A stretch of DNA of 42,300 nucleotides from a virus (IMGVR_UViG_2778261297_000006:1-42300), one strand, 5' to 3'. Positions 18,315-40,247 are shown, numbered from the stretch's first letter. Notes: generated by a model from the sequence alone, not told the origin. Translations and numbers: made by a program.

Positions 18315-18499
18315 ACGCCACAATTCAAACGATACCAGAGCTTCTTATCCAGACACGAGGCAATCAGACCGAAGTGGCGAGGATGCTTTCCTGCGCAAGA
18401 GGAACAGTGCTCAAGTACAACCGAGACAGCAAAGGCGAGCGTCACGTAATAGTTAACAGCGTCCTGATGGTCAAACAGGGCAAGAGGGGAAGACGATGA
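18311..18499 (+). CDS. ninH: NinH-like protein (62 aa)
   Basis: GNQTEVARML.C.RGTV.KY and VLMV blocks resemble lambda NinH (recall). Confidence 0.7.
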   Translation: MNATIQTIPELLIQTRGNQTEVARMLSCARGTVLKYNRDSKGERHVIVNSVLMVKQGKRGRR

Positions 18500-19119
18500 G
18501 ACTCGAAAGCGTAGCTAAATTTCATTCGCCAAAAAGCCCGATGATGAGCGACTCACCACGGGCCACGGCTTCTGACTCTCTTTCCGGTACTGATGTGATG
18601 GCTGCTATGGGGATGGCGCAATCACAAGCCGGATTCGGAATGGCTGCATTCTGCGGTAAGCATGAACTCAGCCAGAACGACAAACAAAAGGCTATCAACT
18701 ATCTGATGCAATATGCACACAAGGTATCGGGGAAATACCGTGGTGTGGCAAAGCTCGAAGGAAATACTAAGGCAAAGGTACTGCAAGTGCTCGCAACATT
18801 CGCTTATGCGGATTATTGCCGTAGTGCCGCGACGCCGGGTGCAAGATGCAGAGATTGCCACGGTACAGGTCGTGCGGTTGATATAGCAAAAACAGAGCAG
18901 TGGGGGAGAGTTGTTGAGAAAGAGTGCGGAAGATGCAAAGGAGTCGGCTATTCAAGAATGCCAGCAAGCGCTGCATATCGCGCTGTAACGATGCTAATCC
19001 CAAACCTTACTCAACCCACCTGGTCACGCACTGTTAAGCCGCTGTATGACGCTCTGGTGGTGCAATGCCACAAGGAAGAGTCAATCGCAGACAACATTTT
19101 GAATGCGGTCACACGTTAG
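18496..19119 (+). CDS. Q: Late antiterminator Q, lambda type (207 aa)
   Basis: 207 aa beginning MRLESVAKFHSPKSPMMSDS, with the Cys-rich zinc-finger region; followed by a lambda-like pR'/qut region. Confidence 0.9.
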   Translation: MRLESVAKFHSPKSPMMSDSPRATASDSLSGTDVMAAMGMAQSQAGFGMAAFCGKHELSQNDKQKAINYLMQYAHKVSGKYRGVAKLEGNTKAKVLQVLATFAYADYCRSAATPGARCRDCHGTGRAVDIAKTEQWGRVVEKECGRCKGVGYSRMPASAAYRAVTMLIPNLTQPTWSRTVKPLYDALVVQCHKEESIADNILNAVTR

Positions 19120-19161: not shown

Positions 19162-19190
19162 TTGACTTTTTGAATAAAGTTGGGTAAATT
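19162..19190 (+). promoter_or_regulatory. Late promoter pR' (-35 TTGACT, -10 TAAATT, 17-bp spacer) with overlapping qut region
   Basis: Hexamers at 19162..19167 and 19185..19190; lambda-like context immediately after Q. Confidence 0.6.
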
Positions 19191-19196
19191 TGACCA

Positions 19197-19389
19197 AACG
19201 ATGGGTTAATTCGCTCGTTGTGGTAGTGAGATAAAAAGAGGCGGCGCTTACTACCGATTCCGCCTAGTTGGTCACTTCGACGCATCGTCTGGAACTCCAA
19301 CCATCGCAGGCTGAGAGGTCTGTAAAATGCAATCCCGAAACAGTTCGCAGGTAATAGTTAGAGCCTGCATAACGGTTTCGGGATTTTTT
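19197..19389 (+). ncRNA. 6S-like short pR' transcript ending at tR'
   Basis: Interval from the predicted pR' start to the tR' hairpin, about 190 nt as in lambda; ends approximate. Confidence 0.5.
19332..19389 (+). terminator. tR' intrinsic terminator
   Basis: Arms atcccgaaac (19332..19341) and gtttcgggat (19375..19384) followed by a T-run to 19389. Confidence 0.6.
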
Positions 19390-19928
19390 ATGTCTGTGCA
19401 ACAGGTAAGAGCATTGAGCCGATAATCGTGAAGAGTCGGCGAGCCTGGTTAGCCAGTGCTCTTTCCGTTGTGGTGAATACGCAGGCTGATGCGTTAATCA
19501 GGTGAACGAGACACCCGCCGGTCCGTGATATGGCACACTGTGCCGGTCATATCTGCCGCGGTTAGGTTTACGAGGATTTCGTAAAGCTGGTCTAGGGTGA
19601 AGCCGTGAAAGCGGAGGAAGTAAAACGAGGCGTCGGTACACGCCTATCGTCATTAAGTCGGAGTTCAGCACCGACCGCCACAACCCAACCTGAGCCGTAG
19701 CCACTGGCTGTCCTGAATTCATCAGTGATAGTTATGCTGCGTCCTTCTACACATGACCTTCGTGAAAGCGGGTGGCAAGAGGTTGCGCTAACAACCTCCT
19801 GCCGTTTTGCCCGTGCATATCGTTCACGAACAAATCTGATTACTAAACACAGTAGCCTGGATTTGTTCTATCAGTAATCGACCTTATTCCTAATTAAATA
19901 GAGCAAATCCCCTTATTGGGGGTAAGAC

Positions 19929-20252
19929 ATGAAGATGCCAGAAAAACATGACCTGTTAGCCGCCATTCTCGCGGCAAAGGAACAAGGCATCGGGGCAATC
20001 CTTGCGTTTGCAATGGCGTACCTTCGCGGCAGATATAATGGCGGTGCGTTTACAAAAACAGTAATCGACGCAACGATGTGCGCCATTATCGCCTGGTTCA
20101 TTCGTGACCTTCTCGACTTCGCCGGACTAAGTAGCAATCTCGCTTATATAACGAGCGTGTTCATCGGCTACATCGGTACTGACTCGATTGGTTCGCTTAT
20201 CAAACGCTTCGCTGCTAGAAAAGCCGGAGTAGGAGATGGTGGAAATCAATAA
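19929..20252 (+). CDS. S: Holin S, lambda type (dual start Met1-Lys-Met3; 107 and 105 aa forms)
   Basis: [34 protein letters not shown]... with the dual-start motif. Confidence 0.95.
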
Positions 20253-20712
20253 TCAACGTAAGGCGTTCCTCGATATGCTGGCGTGGTCAGAGGGAACTGA
20301 TAACGGACGTCAAAAAACCAGAAATCATGGTTATGACGTCATTGTTGGCGGAGAGCTATTCACTGATTACTCCGATCACCCTCGCAAACTTGTCACGCTA
20401 AACCCCAAACTCAAATCAACAGCCGCCGGACGTTACCAGCTTCTTTCCCGTTGGTGGGATGCCTATCGTAAGCAGCTTGGCCTGAAAGACTTCTCTCCGA
20501 AAAGTCAGGACGCTGTGGCACTGCAACAGATTAAAGAGCGTGGCGCTTTACCGATGATTGATCGCGGTGATATTCGTCAGGCTATCGACCGTTGCAGCAA
20601 TATCTGGGCTTCACTGCCGGGCGCTGGTTATGGCCAGTTCGAGCATAAGGCTGACAGCCTGATTGCAAAATTCAAAGAGGCTGGCGGAACGGTCAGAGAG
20701 ATTGAGGTATGA
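20236..20712 (+). CDS. R: Endolysin R (lytic transglycosylase, 158 aa)
   Basis: [24 protein letters not shown]... matches the lambda R family; overlaps the S stop. Confidence 0.95.
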
Positions 20713-21146
20713 GCAGAGTCACCGCGATTATCTCCGCTCTGGTTATCTGCATCATCGTCTGCCTGTCATGGGCTGTTAATCATTACCGTGATAACGCCAT
20801 TACCTATAAAGAACAGCGCGATAAAGCCACGTACATCATCGCTGACATGCAGAAGCGTCAACGTGATGTAGCAGAACTCGACGCCAGATACACAAAGGAG
20901 CTTGCTGATGCTAACGCGACTATCGAAAGTCTCCGTGCTGATGTTTCTGCTGGTCGTAAGCGCCTGCAAGTCGCCGCCACCTGTGCAAAGTCAACGACCG
21001 GAGCCAGCAGCATGGGCGATGGAGAAAGCCCAAGACTTACAGCAGATGCTGAACTCAATTATTACCGTCTACGAAGCGGAATCGACAGGATAACCGCGCA
21101 GGTTAACTACTTGCAGGAATACATCAGGACGCAATGCCTTCGATGA
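20709..21146 (+). CDS. Rz: i-spanin Rz (145 aa)
   Basis: N-terminal TM helix then coiled-coil; follows R with an overlapping start. Confidence 0.9.
20902..21093 (+). CDS. Rz1: o-spanin Rz1 lipoprotein, embedded in the +1 frame of Rz
   Basis: Out-of-frame ORF entirely inside Rz, with lipobox VSAC and a Pro-rich mature region. Confidence 0.7.
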
Positions 21147-21319
21147 TAGCGATAATTTTACTCATCATCCTTCACATCTGGCTCTGTAGACAGGGTGGTG
21201 ATCACTTCTGGAGTGAATCCAGATTAAACATCTCATTGCTGATGCTTGATATTGAGCATCTGGCGCGCGGTAAGGGGCTGCGTTGAGATAAGAGCCAGTC
21301 ATTACAAATACCAGGGTTT

Positions 21320-21345
21320 AGCCTCGCATTCGCGGGGCTTTTTTA
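21320..21345 (+). terminator. Intrinsic terminator downstream of the lysis cassette
   Basis: Stem agcctcgc/gcggggct (one G-U pair) with a 4-nt loop, followed by TTTTTT. Confidence 0.55.
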
Positions 21346-21491
21346 TATCTGCAACAAACGCGCTTCACACGCGCGACTTCTGAACACAGAACCTTTCAGG
21401 ATGACCCTTGAGGATGCCGGTTTGGTGATCGGTGCCTTTCTGTGGGCCGGAATCCTGTGTGACAAGGTTCATCACTAAAAGGTAATCACTG

Positions 21492-22022
21492 ATGAAGTAC
21501 CCAACAGTTATTGTCAATGGTGTGTCCGTTCGTGTTGATGAGGATGGACGCTACAACTTAAACGATCTCCATGCAGCAGCAGTTGCAAATGGAGAGGCTA
21601 CAGAGCAACAGCGCCCAAGCCAGTTTTTGCGTAGCGCGCAGATAAAACGCTTCATAAAAGCACTGGAGGCCAAAGTGCAAAAAAGCACTTTGGAACAAAT
21701 TCAACCACTTAAAATAATCAAAGGTGGTGCAGAACCAGGTGTGTGGGGTGTTGAACTTCTGGCAATCAGATATGCAGCATGGATTAAGCCGGAATTTGAA
21801 ATCGAAGTTTATGAAGTTTTCAAAACGGTTGTCCGTCTCGGCGTTGGCGCAATGTCCCGTCTGAATAGAATCGATCACATCATCAATACTGAAACCAAAG
21901 CGATAAGCCAGTGCGCAAGCCAAATGGCTAAGTGGGGCGTTGGTGGGCGAAAAAGATTGCTTCATGTTGCACGCGAGAGAGCGGCAAATGAAGTGCAAAT
22001 GTATTTGCCCGGGATGGTGTGA
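21492..22022 (+). CDS. KilA-N domain protein (176 aa)
   Basis: N-terminal pattern (VNGVSVRVDEDGRYNLNDLH) typical of KilA-N domains (recall); lies between the lysis cassette and the packaging genes. Confidence 0.65.
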   Translation: MKYPTVIVNGVSVRVDEDGRYNLNDLHAAAVANGEATEQQRPSQFLRSAQIKRFIKALEAKVQKSTLEQIQPLKIIKGGAEPGVWGVELLAIRYAAWIKPEFEIEVYEVFKTVVRLGVGAMSRLNRIDHIINTETKAISQCASQMAKWGVGGRKRLLHVARERAANEVQMYLPGMV

Positions 22023-22278
22023 TTTCGCAGGTTAATCCAGTTTTTGCATTACGGCAGCACCGCGAAACAACCCAAGCCAGAAAGTGGGGAAATAACACTG
22101 GCAGCCACTGAAAGATGAACCTCCAGCCTTATGGCAAAAAAGATTCTTTGTGGTGGCGGACTGATGGAAAGACATCGGTTATTGCAGAGGCCATTCAATG
22201 AGTGGTCTCGACAATGGCTTATACCCTATACGGGATAACTTAATTGATATCCCTTTTAACGGATAAACGGAGCCAACA

Positions 22279-22521
22279 ATGGCAGAGATTATTCCCATGA
22301 CTGAAGAACAGAAATTCCAGTTAGAGATTTACAAACTGGTCATGAACCAGAACGCAGCAGCAGAAGAAGCATTTCAGTTCATTGGCACTGACGAACTGAA
22401 GCTTGAGCTATTCAAAATTCACTTCCAGTCAGGCGGCGCTAATTCAGATATCACGACCCGTACTATCGAAGCGGTGCGTAAATCGAAGGAAGCGTTAGAC
22501 CTGTTCACCGCTGGAGTGTGA
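22279..22521 (+). CDS. Hypothetical helical protein (80 aa)
   Basis: ORF immediately upstream of zincin-like gene A, 1 nt apart. Confidence 0.5.
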   Translation: MAEIIPMTEEQKFQLEIYKLVMNQNAAAEEAFQFIGTDELKLELFKIHFQSGGANSDITTRTIEAVRKSKEALDLFTAGV

Positions 22522-22522
22522 T

Positions 22523-22912
22523 ATGGCTAAGGCCAAATGGCACAAACTCCCGGCGTTCACCATTCCGCTGTTTCAAAGTGCACACGTCTACCTCGCAACA
22601 ACCAGAGAACAGTTTCAGCACGCTGATAAATTCCTTGGCGGCAGCGGGGATGAGAAGCCATTCAATCTTGGGCTTGCAAGCAACTATGAAAACACTGATA
22701 CGGGTGAGAGATGCTATCTGATTGGAGTATTCGATCAGCAGATCGCTACGCTCGTTCATGAGTGCGCCCACGTCTGCTTTTACGTTTGCTCTGATGTCGG
22801 CGTGACGACAAGGCCTGAAGATGCCAACGAGACGTACTGTTACATGCTGGACAGGATGGTTAATCACTTCCTGCCATTCATTCAGGAGAAACAAGATGTA
22901 TCACTGGAATAA
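22523..22912 (+). CDS. Minimal zincin-like protein A (HExxH...E, 129 aa); paralog of 37813..38178
   Basis: HECAH motif with a Glu about 20 residues downstream in ANETYCY; roughly 45% identity by eye to the second copy. Confidence 0.6.
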   Translation: MAKAKWHKLPAFTIPLFQSAHVYLATTREQFQHADKFLGGSGDEKPFNLGLASNYENTDTGERCYLIGVFDQQIATLVHECAHVCFYVCSDVGVTTRPEDANETYCYMLDRMVNHFLPFIQEKQDVSLE

Positions 22913-23184: not shown

Positions 23185-23673
23185 ATGGCAGCACCAAAGG
23201 GCAACCGATTTTGGGAGGCCCGCAGCAGTCACGGGCGCAACCCGAAATTCGAATCGCCTGAGGTGCTGTGGGAAGCATGCTGCGAATATTTCACATGGGT
23301 GGAAGAGCATCCACTGTGGGAAATGAAAGCATTCTCGTATCAGGGTGAAGTGACGCAAGAGCCTATCGCCAAGATGCGTGCAATGACGCTCACCGGCCTA
23401 TGCCTGTTCCTCGATATAGCCGATGAAACATGGCGAAGATTTCGCGCTGACGAAGATTTTTGTGGGGTCACCACGCGAGCAGAGAAAGTCATCTACGACC
23501 AGAAATTCTCCGGCGCAGCTGCTGACCTTCTCAACGCTAATATCATCGCCCGTGATTTGGGCCTCAAAGAGCAGTCGCAAGTTGAAGACGTGACACCTGA
23601 TAAGGGAGATCGCGATAAGCGACGCTCTCGTATCAAGGAGCTATTCAACCGTGGAACTGGACGCGATTCTTGA
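23185..23673 (+). CDS. Terminase small subunit, P22 gp3 type (162 aa)
   Basis: [26 protein letters not shown]... and matching length. Confidence 0.85.
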
Positions 23674-25150
23674 TAACCTGAGCGACGAAGAGCAAATCGA
23701 ATTGCTCGAGCTACTCGAAGAAGAAGAGAACTACCGGAACACACACCTGCTATATGAATTTACGCCATACAGCAAACAGCGTGAGTTCATCGACGCCGGA
23801 CATGACTATCCAGAGCGATGTTTTATGGCTGGTAACCAGCTTGGTAAGTCATTTACTGGTGCTGCTGAAGTCGCGTTTCACCTTACCGGGCGTTATCCTG
23901 GCACAAAAGGCTATCCTGCTGATGGTAAATATGGTGGGGAGTGGAAAGGTAAGCGTTTCTATGAGCCTGTTGTCTTCTGGATTGGCGGCGAGACAAACGA
24001 GACTGTAACCAAAACGACTCAACGCATCCTGTGCGGTCGTATCGAAGAGAATGATGAGCCAGGCTACGGTTCCATACCTAAAGAAGACATCATTAGCTGG
24101 AAGAAGTCTCCTTTCTTTCCGAACCTTGTTGATCATCTTCTGGTTAAGCATCACACAGCTGATGGCGTTGAAGATGGCATTTCAATCTGCTACTTCAAAC
24201 CATACTCGCAAGGCCGTGCTCGCTGGCAGGGTGACACAATCCACGGCGTGTGGTTTGACGAAGAGCCACCATACAGCATTTATGGCGAAGGGCTTACCCG
24301 TACCAACAAATACGGGCAATTCTCAATTCTGACGTTTACCCCGCTGATGGGGATGTCTGACGTTGTTACCAAGTTCCTGAAGAATCCCAGCAAGTCGCAG
24401 AAAGTGGTCAACATGACCATCTATGACGCTGAGCACTACACAGACGAACAGAAAGAGCAAATCATCGCATCCTATCCCGAGCATGAGAGAGAGGCGCGTG
24501 CTCGCGGTATTCCTACGATGGGTAGCGGGCGAATCTTCCAGATACCGGAAGAGACGATTAAGTGTCAGCCGTTCGAGTGTCCTGATCACTTCTACGTAAT
24601 TGGCGGGATGGATTTCGGATGGGATCACCCGCAGGCGCAGGTTCAGCTTTGGTGGGATAAGGATGCAGACACAATCTACGTTTCACGCGTGTGGAAGGCG
24701 AAAGAAAAGACAGCCGTTCAGGCGTGGGGAGCCGTTAAACCATGGGCGCATAAAGTGCCAACCGCATGGCCCCATGACGGAAACCAGCACGAGAAGGGCG
24801 GCGGTGAGCAGCTCAAAGGGCAGTATGCGGACGCTGGATTTATGATGTTGCAGGAGCATGCGACATGGCCTGATGGCGGTAATGCTGTTGAGCCTGGAAT
24901 CACTGAATTGCGCGACATGATGCTAGATGGTCGCTTCAAGGTATTCAACACCTGTGAACCATTCTTTGAGGAGTTCCGCCTCTATCACCGTGATGAAAAC
25001 GGGAAAATCGTCAAGCTTAACGACGACGTGCTATCAGCCGTTCGCTATGCATACATGATGCGCCGCTTCGCCAAAATGATGCGCGACATCAAAAAACCAA
25101 AAGAGAAAAAGATACCAGCCCCAATCAGGCCCATCGCACGGAGAACTTAA
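23651..25150 (+). CDS. Terminase large subunit, P22 gp2 type (499 aa)
   Basis: Size and position match P22 gp2; GTG start overlapping the small-subunit gene. Confidence 0.9.
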
Positions 25151-39132: not shown

Positions 39133-39306
39133 ATGATAGTCAAGTCAGACGCACCAAAGTACCCTTTGCGCATCCCATTAGAGGTTAAGTTAGCAATCGA
39201 GAAGTCAGCGAAAGAAAATGGTCGCTCAATAAATACCGAGATGGTAATGCGGTTAGTGGATAGTTTAAGGCGGGATAGTTCTAAAGGTAATCTAGCAAAA
39301 AGTTGA
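39133..39306 (+). CDS. arc: Arc-like ribbon-helix-helix repressor (57 aa)
   Basis: [32 protein letters not shown] resembles P22 Arc (recall); GGAGG 4 nt upstream of the ATG at 39133. Confidence 0.7.
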
Positions 39307-39380
39307 AGCCCCAACTGCGGGAACAGTCAGGGCTTCGGTATCAACAAATCGGATTAGGAAATATTGACATGAAAAGTATA
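39296..39380 (-). ncRNA. Possible sar-like antisense RNA across the ant start (about 70 nt)
   Basis: Minus-strand -10 candidate TATACT (plus 39375..39380) and a minus-strand hairpin (39305..39336) plus U-run in the arc-ant spacer; boundaries approximate and the -35 is weak. Confidence 0.3.
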
Positions 39381-40247
39381 GCAAAGGCACAAAACGATTT
39401 CACCATCTTCAAATTCGGCGACAGTGAAATCCGCGTCATCAACAAATGCGGTGAGCCGTGGTTTGTAGCAAAAGATGTTTGTGATGCTTTAACCCTGACT
39501 AACTCACGCAAGGCGCTTACTGCACTTGATGACGATGAAAAGGGAGTAACTTTAAGTTACACCCTTGGTGGTGAGCAGAATCTAAGCATTGTTAGCGAAT
39601 CAGGTATGTATACATTGGTTCTGCGCTGCCGCGATGCTGTCAATAAAGGTTCGGTCCCGCACAAATTCCGCAAGTGGGTAACAGCAGAAGTTCTACCTTC
39701 AATTCGCAAACATGGCGAGTATGTGAAAGGCAAGAAAACCACTGTTGAGGAAAGAACGCCGCTACGCGATGCAGTAAACATGCTGGTAGGAAAGAAAGGA
39801 CTTCGCTATGACGATGCATACAATATGGTTCATCAGCGTTTTGGTATTGACAGCATTGATGAACTTTCAATTGAACAAATCCCGCTGGCCGTAGAGTACA
39901 TCCACAGGGTAGTGCTTGAAGGCGAGTTTATCGGCAAACAAGAGAAGAAAGCAAACGAGCTTTCTGCAAAAGAAGCAAACAGCCTTGTATGGCTATGGGA
40001 TTATGCTAACCGTTCACAGGCATTATTCCGCGAACTGTATCCGGCATTAAAACAAATTCAATCGAACTATTCCGGCAGATGCTACGACTACGGTCATGAA
40101 TTCTCGTATGTTATCGGAATGGCGAGAGACGTTTTAATAAATCACACACGAGATGTTGATATCAATGAGCCAGACGGACCAACGAATCTTTCCGCATGGA
40201 TGAGACTTAAGAATAAAGAATTGCCTCCTTCAGTACATAACTACTGA
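39369..40247 (+). CDS. ant: Antirepressor Ant (Bro-N/AntA-type N-terminal domain), 292 aa from the ATG at 39369
   Basis: N-terminal [28 protein letters not shown] motif; position after arc; terminator downstream. Confidence 0.8.

What the first reader, a model, noticed from the sequence alone, without database searches (positions are those of the whole stretch)
21347..22022. KilA-N domain protein at the lysis/packaging boundary
A 176-aa protein with a KilA-N-type N-terminus lies after the post-lysis terminator, apparently as its own unit. As far as I recall, KilA-N domains occur both in antirepressor-like regulators and in prophage-encoded abortive-infection proteins such as BstA. This protein is shorter than those I recall. 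An inverted repeat GGGATA-N10-TATCCC at 22232..22253 downstream may be a regulatory site.
Basis: partly seen in the sequence, partly recalled or inferred. Interest (0 to 1): 0.45.

Follow-up and report, generated by a model that had tools for sequence, protein, structure and literature searches.

The report
KilA-N gene behind structured RNA leader
The gene is an ordinary late-operon phage DNA-binding protein and not a BstA-type defence gene, but the 135 bases in front of it fold into a conserved, apparently undescribed RNA with two long-range pairings that hides the ribosome-binding site; the same RNA also precedes phage P22's rha gene and several nuclease genes.

Summary
The ORF at 21492-22022 (176 aa) has a KilA-N domain (Pfam E=7e-18) and follows a terminator at 21320-21345. 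The inverted repeat at 22232-22253 exists.

The interpretation mostly fails. The protein is not a truncated or BstA-like protein. It belongs to a widespread ~170-aa KilA-N + ORF11CD3-like family of the Bro/Rha/Ant network, already annotated as ST104 orf45. It sits in the slot that holds rha in P22 and a GIY-YIG nuclease in epsilon34.

The terminator is not the end of the lysis cassette. It travels with the gene into unrelated siphovirus tail operons, and no promoter lies behind it.

The segment 21357-21491 encodes a conserved RNA:
- a hairpin whose loop pairs with a 6-nt bulge;
- a second long-range helix;
- a long rod that sequesters the Shine-Dalgarno sequence.

Across 80 distinct sequences, 95.9% of cells are paired (32-50% in slid controls) and 30 of 41 pairs show compensatory changes. 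Rfam 15 has no match. The same leader precedes Rha, P22_AR_N, HNH-AP2 and GIY-YIG genes.

The inverted repeat belongs to the next gene's upstream region and occurs independently of KilA-N.

Most likely this is a late-only, translationally gated accessory cassette. The protein's target is unknown.

The parts
21320..21345 (+). Intrinsic terminator T1 (8-bp stem, loop ATTC, T6). It travels with the cassette.
   Evidence: scan; homology with the Klebsiella and Enterobacter siphovirus loci begins at 21317/21320; a terminator lies within 110 nt upstream in 83 of 94 distinct instances, and 3 more have imperfect hairpins with a T-run.
21359..21375 (+). Hairpin hp2 (CGCGC / loop TTCACAC / GCGCG). Loop bases 21365-21370 (TCACAC) pair with the bulge at 21457-21462.
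   Evidence: The loop-bulge helix is 97.4% paired and 5 of its 6 pairs show compensatory changes. One pair occurs as GC:36, AU:31, UA:11, CG:1. This helix was not part of the covariance model.
21385..21391 (+). H1 5' arm (CACAGAA). It pairs with 21438-21444 (TTCTGTG) and crosses the rod, so it is either a pseudoknot or an alternative helix.
   Evidence: 88.8% paired, 4 of 7 pairs compensatory; 95.3% paired. One search lists variants such as CCAAGA/TCTTGG, CTCAGA/TCTGAG, CGTAGA/TCTACG and CACCGA/TCGGTG. Not modelled by the CM.
21392..21482 (+). Rod. H2a 21392-21396/21478-21482 (CCTTT/AAAGG, which is the Shine-Dalgarno). H2b 21400-21404/21469-21473. H2c 21406-21410/21463-21467. H3 21411-21415/21452-21456. 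Bulge GTGTGA 21457-21462. Inner hairpin H4 21417-21420/21429-21432. H1 3' arm 21438-21444.
   Evidence: MFE; RNAalifold; pair counts: helices 96-99.8% paired, most pairs with compensatory changes.
21492..22022 (+). KilA-N + ORF11CD3-like protein, 176 aa.
22051..22237 (+). Post-cargo segment shared by P22-like phages whatever the cargo. It belongs to the slot, not to the KilA-N cassette.
   Evidence: homology with CUS-3, epsilon34 and P22 resumes at 22051, which is 29 nt after the stop codon.
22232..22253 (.). Inverted repeat GGGATA-N10-TATCCC, extending imperfectly to 22219-22266. It lies in a 34-bp indel upstream of the DUF2560 gene (22279-22521).

Best explanation
The region 21317-22022 is a mobile accessory cassette embedded in the late operon of a P22-like E. 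coli prophage. It consists of an intrinsic terminator, a ~135-nt structured leader RNA, and a gene for a small DNA-binding protein. The protein has a KilA-N/APSES-like domain plus an ORF11CD3-like helical hairpin and belongs to the Bro/Rha/Ant domain-shuffling network.

Shown:
- the domain identity and fold of the protein;
- that the cassette, terminator included, occurs co-oriented in different late-operon slots of unrelated phage types;
- that the leader is a conserved RNA structure on the + strand with two long-range pairings, and that its basal helix pairs with the Shine-Dalgarno sequence;
- that the same leader precedes interchangeable cargo genes (KilA-N, Rha, P22_AR_N, HNH-AP2, GIY-YIG), including P22 rha.

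Inferred:
- The cassette has no promoter. It is transcribed only when Q-modified RNA polymerase reads through the terminator, so expression is late and lytic, not lysogenic.
- The folded leader holds translation of the cargo low or off until some cue, still unknown, opens the basal helix. This would limit synthesis of DNA-binding or nuclease proteins that are harmful in excess.
- The protein binds DNA, probably as an oligomer through its helical hairpin. Its target and benefit are unknown.
For: Context: Q at 18496-19119, holin, endolysin and Rz at 19929-21146, terminase at 23185-25150. The same gene is present in ST104, SE1, PS119 and UPF_BP1 and in 73 of 5426 complete E. coli genomes.

Protein.

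Mobility: homologs 86% and 70% identical lie between tail-chaperone-like and tape-measure genes of Klebsiella and Enterobacter siphovirus prophages. Homology with those loci runs from 21317/21320 to 22015.

RNA. On 80 distinct sequences, 95.9% of cells are paired against 32-50% when the partners are slid, and 30 of 41 pairs show double changes. The two tertiary helices were not in the covariance model and still covary. Roughly 100 G-U cells fit the + strand only. The leader is retained with KilA-N homologs of only 44% identity.

Other cargo with the same leader.

No promoter. Terminator adjacency.
Against: There are no expression data. A weak or activator-dependent promoter overlapping the terminator cannot be excluded. 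Several relatives have TATAAT or TACAAT between hp2 and H1, which could give a second, hp2-less transcript; the window version lacks it.

An elaborate double-pseudoknot fold is more than simple SD masking needs, so a sensing, processing or trans-acting role may be the real function.

Whether H1 and the basal helix coexist or alternate is undetermined.

The window protein itself does not reach any Pfam score for ORF11CD3.

The MFE z-score of the leader alone is only -1.96.
Confidence: 0.6

Rival explanations
1. BstA-like prophage defence: the protein is made in lysogens and aborts infection by other phages.
For: It shares a KilA-N(-like) N-terminal domain with BstA (PMC8585504). It sits in an accessory, swappable slot of a temperate phage.
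Against: No match to PADLOC's BstA model, which scores true BstA at 1.9e-124. No significant sequence or profile similarity. It lacks BstA's C-terminal domain (176 aa against 307 aa). It lies in the late operon behind a terminator, with a sequestered SD and no promoter. MG40 carries both genes.
Confidence: 0.06
2. Antirepressor or inducer: a late-made Bro-network protein that inactivates repressors, or otherwise derepresses co-resident prophages or satellites.
For: The same leader and the same C-terminal module are found on proteins with the P22 antirepressor N-domain (P22_AR_N + ORF11CD3) and on Rha proteins. RefSeq annotates P22 rha as 'anti-repressor'. Bro-network genes are prominent in satellites (PMC10111431).
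Against: The window already has a canonical immI region with the sar RNA and ant. No P22_AR, ANT or AntA domain is present in this protein. HNH and GIY-YIG nucleases under the same leader do not fit an antirepressor role.
Confidence: 0.15
3. Selfish homing-type cassette: the cargo is a sequence-specific DNA-binding or nuclease module that promotes the spread of its own cassette between phage genomes, and the leader merely limits toxicity.
For: The cargo is interchangeable with HNH_3+AP2 and GIY-YIG endonucleases in the same slot or behind the same leader. The cassette occurs at different late-operon sites in unrelated phages. A natural chimeric leader, L161, shows recombination inside the leader. 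The resemblance of the KilA-N and Bro folds to homing-endonuclease DNA-binding modules is noted in the literature (Iyer et al. 2002 from my own knowledge; PMC10111431).
Against: The KilA-N protein has no nuclease domain. Its length and sequence are well conserved across genera (67-99% identity), which suggests selection on a function of the protein.
Confidence: 0.15
4. The leader is a sensor or an actor rather than a passive mask. It could be a riboswitch for a small molecule, a self-cleaving or processing element, or a source or target of a trans-acting RNA whose variable kissing sequence acts as an address.
For: It has two covarying tertiary pairings and conserved unpaired nucleotides (UGAG, GGGC). 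The kissing pair varies among otherwise near-identical leaders (TCACAC, TCGCAC, TCTCAC). It differs between the two copies in all six loci that hold two copies.
Against: No match to any riboswitch, ribozyme, C4 or isrK model in Rfam 15. No candidate ligand. The cargo genes have no metabolic theme. Orthogonality of two copies on one polycistronic RNA is also needed simply for correct folding in cis.
Confidence: 0.2
5. The conserved palindromes are DNA sites (an operator or recombination site), not RNA.
For: hp2 is a GC-rich palindrome, CGCGC-N7-GCGCG, and cargo-swap junctions fall at or near it.
Against: The hp2 LOOP, not only its arms, covaries with a site 90 nt away. G-U pairs are frequent (one H4 pair is G-U in 54 of 71 sequences) and would be A-C mismatches on the other strand or in DNA cruciforms.
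Confidence: 0.04

Closest known systems
P22 rha (orf201) and phi80 rha, late-region genes inhibitory in IHF-deficient hosts (Henthorn & Friedman 1995, from my own knowledge; the paper could not be retrieved)
   Same: Same slot between Rz and the DUF2560/orf80 gene. Same leader RNA upstream, at L244 2005-2154 with 44.9 bits and E=2e-8. Many Rha-type cargo proteins carry the same ORF11CD3 C-terminal module, and some share the first ~8 codons (MKYPTV..NG).
   Different: The N-terminal DNA-binding domain is KilA-N, not Phage_pRha. No genetic phenotype is known for this gene.
BstA (BTP1) abortive-infection protein
   Same: A KilA-N(-like) N-terminal domain, encoded by a P22-like temperate phage.
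   Different: BstA is 307 aa with a distinct C-terminal domain. It lies in an operon with cI, is expressed in lysogens and has the aba self-immunity DNA element (PMC8585504, PMC7067206). There is no sequence or profile similarity.
ST104 orf45 and its homologs in SE1, PS119 and UPF_BP1 ('KilA-N domain-containing protein')
   Same: The same gene and flanks: 94% nucleotide identity over 21321-22225.
   Different: None of substance. Neither the leader nor a function is annotated in those records.
RNA control of Bro-network genes: P1 c4/icd-ant, P4 CI/seqA-eta, P22 sar-ant
   Same: Short complementary RNA segments that differ between related elements control translation of antirepressor or Bro-type genes (PMC10111431; sar found in this window).
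   Different: Those are antisense or processed trans-acting RNAs. Here both partners lie in one leader in an order suited to intramolecular folding. Rfam's C4, isrK and sar models do not match the leader.
SD-sequestering hairpins on T4 homing-endonuclease and late genes (I-TevI, e, soc; from my own knowledge)
   Same: Translation of nuclease or accessory genes is masked by RNA structure in read-through transcripts, and the cargo includes free-standing HNH and GIY-YIG genes.
   Different: The T4 cases are simple hairpins opened by transcripts that start inside them. This is a ~135-nt fold with two long-range pairings and no internal promoter in the window.
Morons (lambda bor/lom, HK97 gp15)
   Same: An accessory gene inserted between late genes. 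In the siphovirus relatives it occupies the chaperone/tape-measure slot, which is where HK97 gp15 lies (from my own knowledge).
   Different: Morons have their own promoter upstream and a terminator downstream. Here the terminator is upstream, no promoter is seen and no terminator follows.

Membership tests
KilA-N domain (Pfam PF04383) | Profile match above the curated cut-off | tested here: met
   64.8 bits against 23.8, E=7.3e-18, residues 9-113.
KilA-N domain (Pfam PF04383) | APSES-like alpha+beta DNA-binding fold | tested here: met
KilA-N domain (Pfam PF04383) | Binds DNA | not testable with these tools
   Needs EMSA or ChIP.
ORF11CD3 domain (PF10549) | Profile match in the C-terminal ~55 residues | tested here: inconclusive
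   No hit for the window protein at E<=1. However, 5 of 14 aligned family members match, many ~170-aa homologs carry a precomputed PF10549, and the motif S..A..M..WG..GRK..L...R....Q..LPG aligns.
BstA abortive-infection family | Match to the BstA profile (PADLOC PDLC02356) | tested here: not met
   No hit at E<=1. The positive control, BTP1 BstA, scores 1.9e-124.
BstA abortive-infection family | Two-domain ~300-aa architecture with the BstA C-terminal domain | tested here: not met
   176 aa. hhalign of the family profile against BstA gives probability 0.35%. BLASTP E=2.6.
BstA abortive-infection family | Encoded beside the prophage repressor and expressed in lysogeny | tested here: not met
   It lies in the late operon between Rz and the terminase genes. 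BstA is in the cI-bstA operon (PMC7067206). Expression itself is not testable here.
BstA abortive-infection family | Cognate aba DNA element spanning the start codon, with terminal direct repeats | tested here: not met
   Reading 21460-21530 shows no CCCGCC-type direct repeats around the ATG. The function of any such element was not tested.
Moron | Own promoter upstream and terminator downstream | tested here: not met
   No promoter-like site between 21346 and 21491 and no terminator after 22022. The terminator is upstream.
P22 rha-slot cassette (defined in this report) | Lies between the Rz and DUF2560/orf80 genes and is preceded by the terminator-hp2-leader RNA | tested here: met
Phage_pRha / antirepressor domains (PF09669, P22_AR_N, ANT, AntA) | Profile match | tested here: not met
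   Only KilA-N was found.
Known RNA families (Rfam 15, including C4, isrK, sar, riboswitches and ribozymes) | Covariance-model match to the leader | tested here: not met
   No + strand match in 21357-21491 at E<=10. No match at E<=0.1 in five other loci that hold the leader.
Riboswitch | Conserved structured aptamer joined to an SD-sequestering expression platform | tested here: met
Riboswitch | Specific ligand binding that changes the fold | not testable with these tools
   Needs in-line probing or ITC. No candidate ligand.

The most novel reading that the evidence does not exclude
The leader is a new class of regulatory RNA that gates selfish DNA-binding and nuclease genes in phage late operons. 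Its hypervariable, strictly co-varying loop-bulge pair would act as an address code. Either it is an RNA-RNA recognition system working in trans between co-infecting phages or between cassettes, in the manner of P1 c4 or P4 CI, or it is a riboswitch or ribozyme that responds to a cue of the infected cell. It would then explain how P22 rha-type genes are controlled.
Probability: 0.2. Interest if true: 0.85.

Novelty: new variant of a known kind. Interest (0 to 1): 0.6.

Why it matters
The protein is a known, already annotated family member, and filing it as defence would be wrong.

The leader matters more. It is a ~135-nt RNA with two covarying tertiary pairings, and it sits unannotated in front of rha in phage P22 and in front of hundreds of Bro-network, HNH and GIY-YIG genes in enterobacterial prophages. 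That gives a concrete, mutable handle on a question open since rha was described: how these late accessory genes are controlled and what they do.

It also corrects start codons. The annotated starts of P22 rha and of CUS-3 ECRS218_0024 lie inside the RNA.

Finally, the 'post-lysis terminator' of P22-like phages turns out to be part of a mobile cassette.

Tried and rejected
- A 25-aa ORF inside the leader (21402-21479, MTLEDAGLVIGAFLWAGILCDKVHH) was rejected. Klebsiella relatives have frame-breaking 1-nt indels and Enterobacter relatives lack its ATG.
- An antisense RNA ending at hp2 on the minus strand was rejected. The minus-strand T-run is not conserved, and the weak Rfam asX2 hit (23 bits against 70) only reflects terminator shape.
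- hp2 as a DNA operator or promoter element was rejected once its loop was found to covary with the bulge 90 nt away.
- TATAAT after hp2 as the promoter: it is present only in some relatives, has no -35, and would cut hp2 out of the RNA. Left open.
- An alternative hairpin TTCATCA/TGATGAA over the start codon is not conserved in the L007-type leaders.
- The first AF2 run on a shallow alignment gave pLDDT 48.9 and was discarded.
- The search for related loci with the divergent alignment A3 failed. The P0125 scan found nothing.
- A profile search with A3 returned only close relatives.
- No solved structure was found by sequence.
- Literature searches found nothing on this leader or this protein family's function.
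- The rha paper of 1995 is not held.

Full report
**Context**

The window is a P22-like (Lederbergvirus) prophage of E. coli. The gene order on the + strand is:
- Q-like antiterminator, 18496-19119;
- holin, 19929-20252;
- endolysin, 20236-20712;
- Rz, 20709-21146;
- the ORF in question, 21492-22022;
- a DUF2560 gene, 22279-22521;
- a 129-aa HExxH protein, 22523-22912;
- small terminase (gp3 type), 23185-23673, and large terminase, 23651-25150.

The stretch 21300-22280 is 99.6% identical to an E. coli chromosome and is complete in 73 of 5426 complete E. coli genomes. The region 21321-22225 is 94% identical to phages ST104 (orf45), SE1, PS119, MG40 and UPF_BP1, where the gene is annotated 'KilA-N domain-containing protein'.

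**The observation**

- a 176-aa ORF with a KilA-N domain (Pfam E=7.3e-18, residues 9-113);
- a terminator-like hairpin plus T6 at 21320-21345;
- GGGATA-N10-TATCCC at 22232-22253.

**The protein**

Homologs are numerous: 458 at 90% clustering in the first search, 1777 representatives at 50% clustering, and thousands with a profile. Those that align over the full length are 161-181 aa, so the short length is the family's own and not a truncation.

Beyond residue 115 the family shares the motif S..A..M..WG..GRK..L...R....Q..LPG. Five of 14 aligned members, and many database homologs, match Pfam ORF11CD3 there. The window protein itself does not.

[quoted passage not shown] 2002, from my own knowledge; PMC10111431).

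**Not BstA**

- PADLOC-DB contains a BstA model that scores BTP1 BstA at 1.9e-124. The window protein gives no PADLOC hit at E<=1.
- BLASTP (E=2.6) and hhalign (probability 0.35%) find nothing.
- BstA is 307 aa, lies in an operon with cI and is highly expressed in lysogens (PMC8585504; PMC7067206).
- Phage MG40 carries both bstA and this KilA-N gene.

**The cassette and its terminator**

Homologs 86% and 70% identical occur in Klebsiella and Enterobacter siphovirus prophages. There they sit co-oriented between a DUF6246 gene next to the tail tube and the tape-measure gene. That is a different late-operon slot in an unrelated virion type.

Homology with those loci starts at 21317/21320, the first base of the terminator hairpin, and ends at 22015. 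The 'post-lysis terminator' therefore belongs to the KilA-N cassette.

Among 94 distinct instances, 83 have a strict hairpin plus T-run within 110 nt upstream, and 3 more have imperfect ones. The terminator usually ends about 10 nt before the next conserved element. No sigma-70-like site lies between the terminator and the ATG in the window.

**The leader RNA**

The 145 nt that looked like spacer are conserved together with the gene, even where the protein is only 44% identical. The elements are:
- hairpin hp2, 21359-21375;
- H1, 21385-21391 pairing with 21438-21444;
- a long rod made of H2a, H2b, H2c and H3, with the 6-nt bulge GTGTGA (21457-21462) between H3 and H2c;
- an optional inner hairpin H4.

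H2a pairs CCTTT (21392-21396) with AAAGG (21478-21482), which is the Shine-Dalgarno sequence 9 nt before the ATG.

The hp2 loop (TCACAC, 21365-21370) is complementary to the bulge in every variant examined. The pairs seen include TCGCAC/GTGCGA, TCTCAC/GTGAGA, CCACAT/ATGTGG, CCTCAT/ATGAGG, CGCTC/GAGCG, CGCCC/GGGCG, TGCCC/GGGCA, TTCTCGT/ACGAGAA and TTCACC/GGTGAA.

I built two covariance models holding only the nested helices and aligned 104 hits, 80 of them distinct. Pair counts on that alignment gave:
- 95.9% of cells paired, against 32-50% with the 3' partners slid by 1-3 columns;
- 30 of 41 pairs with changes on both sides;
- a covariation score of 0.308, against 0.02-0.06 in the slid controls;
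- none of 500 shuffles reaching the observed value on four of the five measures (5 of 500 reached it for further pair types).

The two crossing helices were not in the models, so their columns were not fitted to pair:
- The loop-bulge helix is 97.4% paired with 5 of 6 pairs compensatory. One pair occurs as GC:36, AU:31, UA:11, CG:1.
- H1 is 95.3% paired, with AU:43, CG:16, UA:10, GC:3 at one position.

RNAalifold independently recovers hp2, H2a-c and H4, with 19 of 29 pairs compensatory. Frequent G-U pairs place the structure on the + strand RNA.

Rfam 15 has no family for it. This held in a permissive search of 21250-22300 and in five other loci that hold the leader. I found no paper describing it.

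H1's 5' arm abuts H2a, while its partner lies in the apical loop of a rod of about 20 bp. Either the rod bends so that all helices coexist, or H1 plus the kissing contact competes with the SD-masking helix. This cannot be settled here.

**The leader is a module, not a KilA-N accessory**

The same RNA precedes:
- P22 rha (L244 2005-2154), the CUS-3 Rha-like gene and the epsilon34 GIY-YIG nuclease gp68;
- an HNH_3+AP2 endonuclease directly after the late promoter and terminator of another phage (L111 621-735);
- a second HNH-AP2 gene (L086) and a 271-aa gene (L096) next to KilA-N copies.

I examined 120 viral contigs sharing the window-type 3' half of the leader. The downstream genes, by my own tally of the groups (domains), were approximately:

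| Cargo | Count (approx.) |
|---|---|
| KilA-N/ORF11CD3-like | 42 |
| Rha+ORF11CD3 | 24 |
| KilA-N+P63C | 21 |
| P22_AR_N+ORF11CD3 | 17 |
| HNH_3 endonucleases (with AP2 or a homing-endonuclease zinc loop) | 12 |
| Rha | 4 |

In P22-like phages the swapped segment runs from 21376-21513 on the left to 22050 on the right. From 22051 onward all of them are alike, whatever the cargo.

Loci with two leaders always have different kissing sequences in the two copies (6 of 6). One natural chimera, L161, has both tertiary pairings broken.

**The inverted repeat**

It extends imperfectly to 19-nt arms at 22219-22266. It lies in a 34-bp indel just upstream of the DUF2560 gene. It is present in UPF_BP1, CUS-3 (Rha-like cargo) and epsilon34 (GIY-YIG cargo), and absent from ST104 (the same KilA-N cargo) and P22. 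Its presence does not track the KilA-N gene, so it is not a good candidate for this protein's operator.

**How it most likely works**

Shown:
- the anatomy described above.

Inferred:
- Transcription reaches the cassette only from the late promoter (TTGACT-17-TAAATT at 19162-19190), by Q-modified polymerase reading through T1. Expression is therefore late and lytic.
- The folded leader masks the SD and keeps synthesis of the cargo low or conditional.
- The cargo is a DNA-binding protein that probably oligomerises through its helical hairpin.

The target and benefit are unknown. The candidates are a Rha-like effect on host or phage DNA transactions, antirepression, or selfish homing-type spread. 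The fold's complexity and the diversifying kissing pair leave room for a sensing or trans-acting role. I put that at about 0.2.

**Verdict**

The gene is a known kind and the defence reading is not supported. The finding's real content is an apparently undescribed, strongly supported structured leader RNA shared with P22 rha and with nuclease genes.

Noticed in passing
L244 (P22 NC_002371) 2005-2154; rha annotated from 2076: The annotated GTG start of P22 rha (orf201) lies inside the leader RNA. The SD-proximal ATG at 2146 (MNELIANHDFDFRQLV...) fits the N-termini of Rha-type cargo proteins and would make the protein about 178 aa. The same applies to CUS-3 ECRS218_0024 (annotated start 1824; the leader ends at an ATG near 1892).
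   Followed up: partly
window 39301-39367 (-): sar antisense RNA (Rfam RF00262, 71.6 bits) next to an ORF at 39303-40247 (314 aa). The prophage therefore has a P22-type immI/ant region of its own.
   Followed up: no
window 19331-19405: The late terminator tR' (AATCCCGAAAC...GTTTCGGGATT + T6) is followed by ATGTCTGTGCAACAGG. This resembles the flank after T1 (ATATCTGCAACAAAC). In locus L111 a leader copy sits directly after the late promoter and terminator. The cassette's 5' end may derive from a tR' region.
   Followed up: partly
L161 2516-2657: A natural chimeric leader. Its 5' part (hp2 loop TCGCAC, H1 arm CAAAGA) comes from one variant and its 3' part (bulge GTGAGA, H1 arm TCTGTG) from another, so both tertiary pairings are mismatched.
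   Followed up: partly
window 22051-22237: A ~190-nt non-coding segment after the cargo stop codon is conserved (91-97% identity) in P22, CUS-3 and epsilon34 regardless of cargo. It gives a weak Proteo-phage-1 RNA hit at 22035-22106 (17.3 bits, below the gathering score of 42). Function unknown.
   Followed up: no
window 22523-22912: A 129-aa protein (phrog_1365) with an HExxH motif and weak SprT-like and mod_HExxH matches (E 0.12 and 0.002). Possibly a small metalloprotease-like late protein.
   Followed up: no
viral loci L142, L228, L166 compared with window 21492-21520: KilA-N and Rha-type cargo proteins share their first ~8 residues (MKYPTVIVNG against MKYPTVINGLDF / MNYPTIVNGIDF). The recombination junction, or the functional end of the leader module, may therefore lie inside the first codons.
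   Followed up: no
MT774487 (phage MG40) 29538-29600 and 38350-39253: One phage carries both bstA with its aba element and this KilA-N cassette.
   Followed up: partly
L007, L091-L094, L096, L100, L105 (between hp2 and H1): Many relatives have TATAAT or TACAAT exactly between hp2 and H1. The window has CTTCTGAA there. This could be a second promoter giving an hp2-less transcript, or just an A/U-rich linker.
   Followed up: partly
(E. coli genomes): 1736 of 5426 E. coli genomes match part of 21300-22280, but only 73 match most of it. Pieces of the cassette (terminator, leader or post-cargo segment) are far more widespread than this cargo gene.
   Followed up: no
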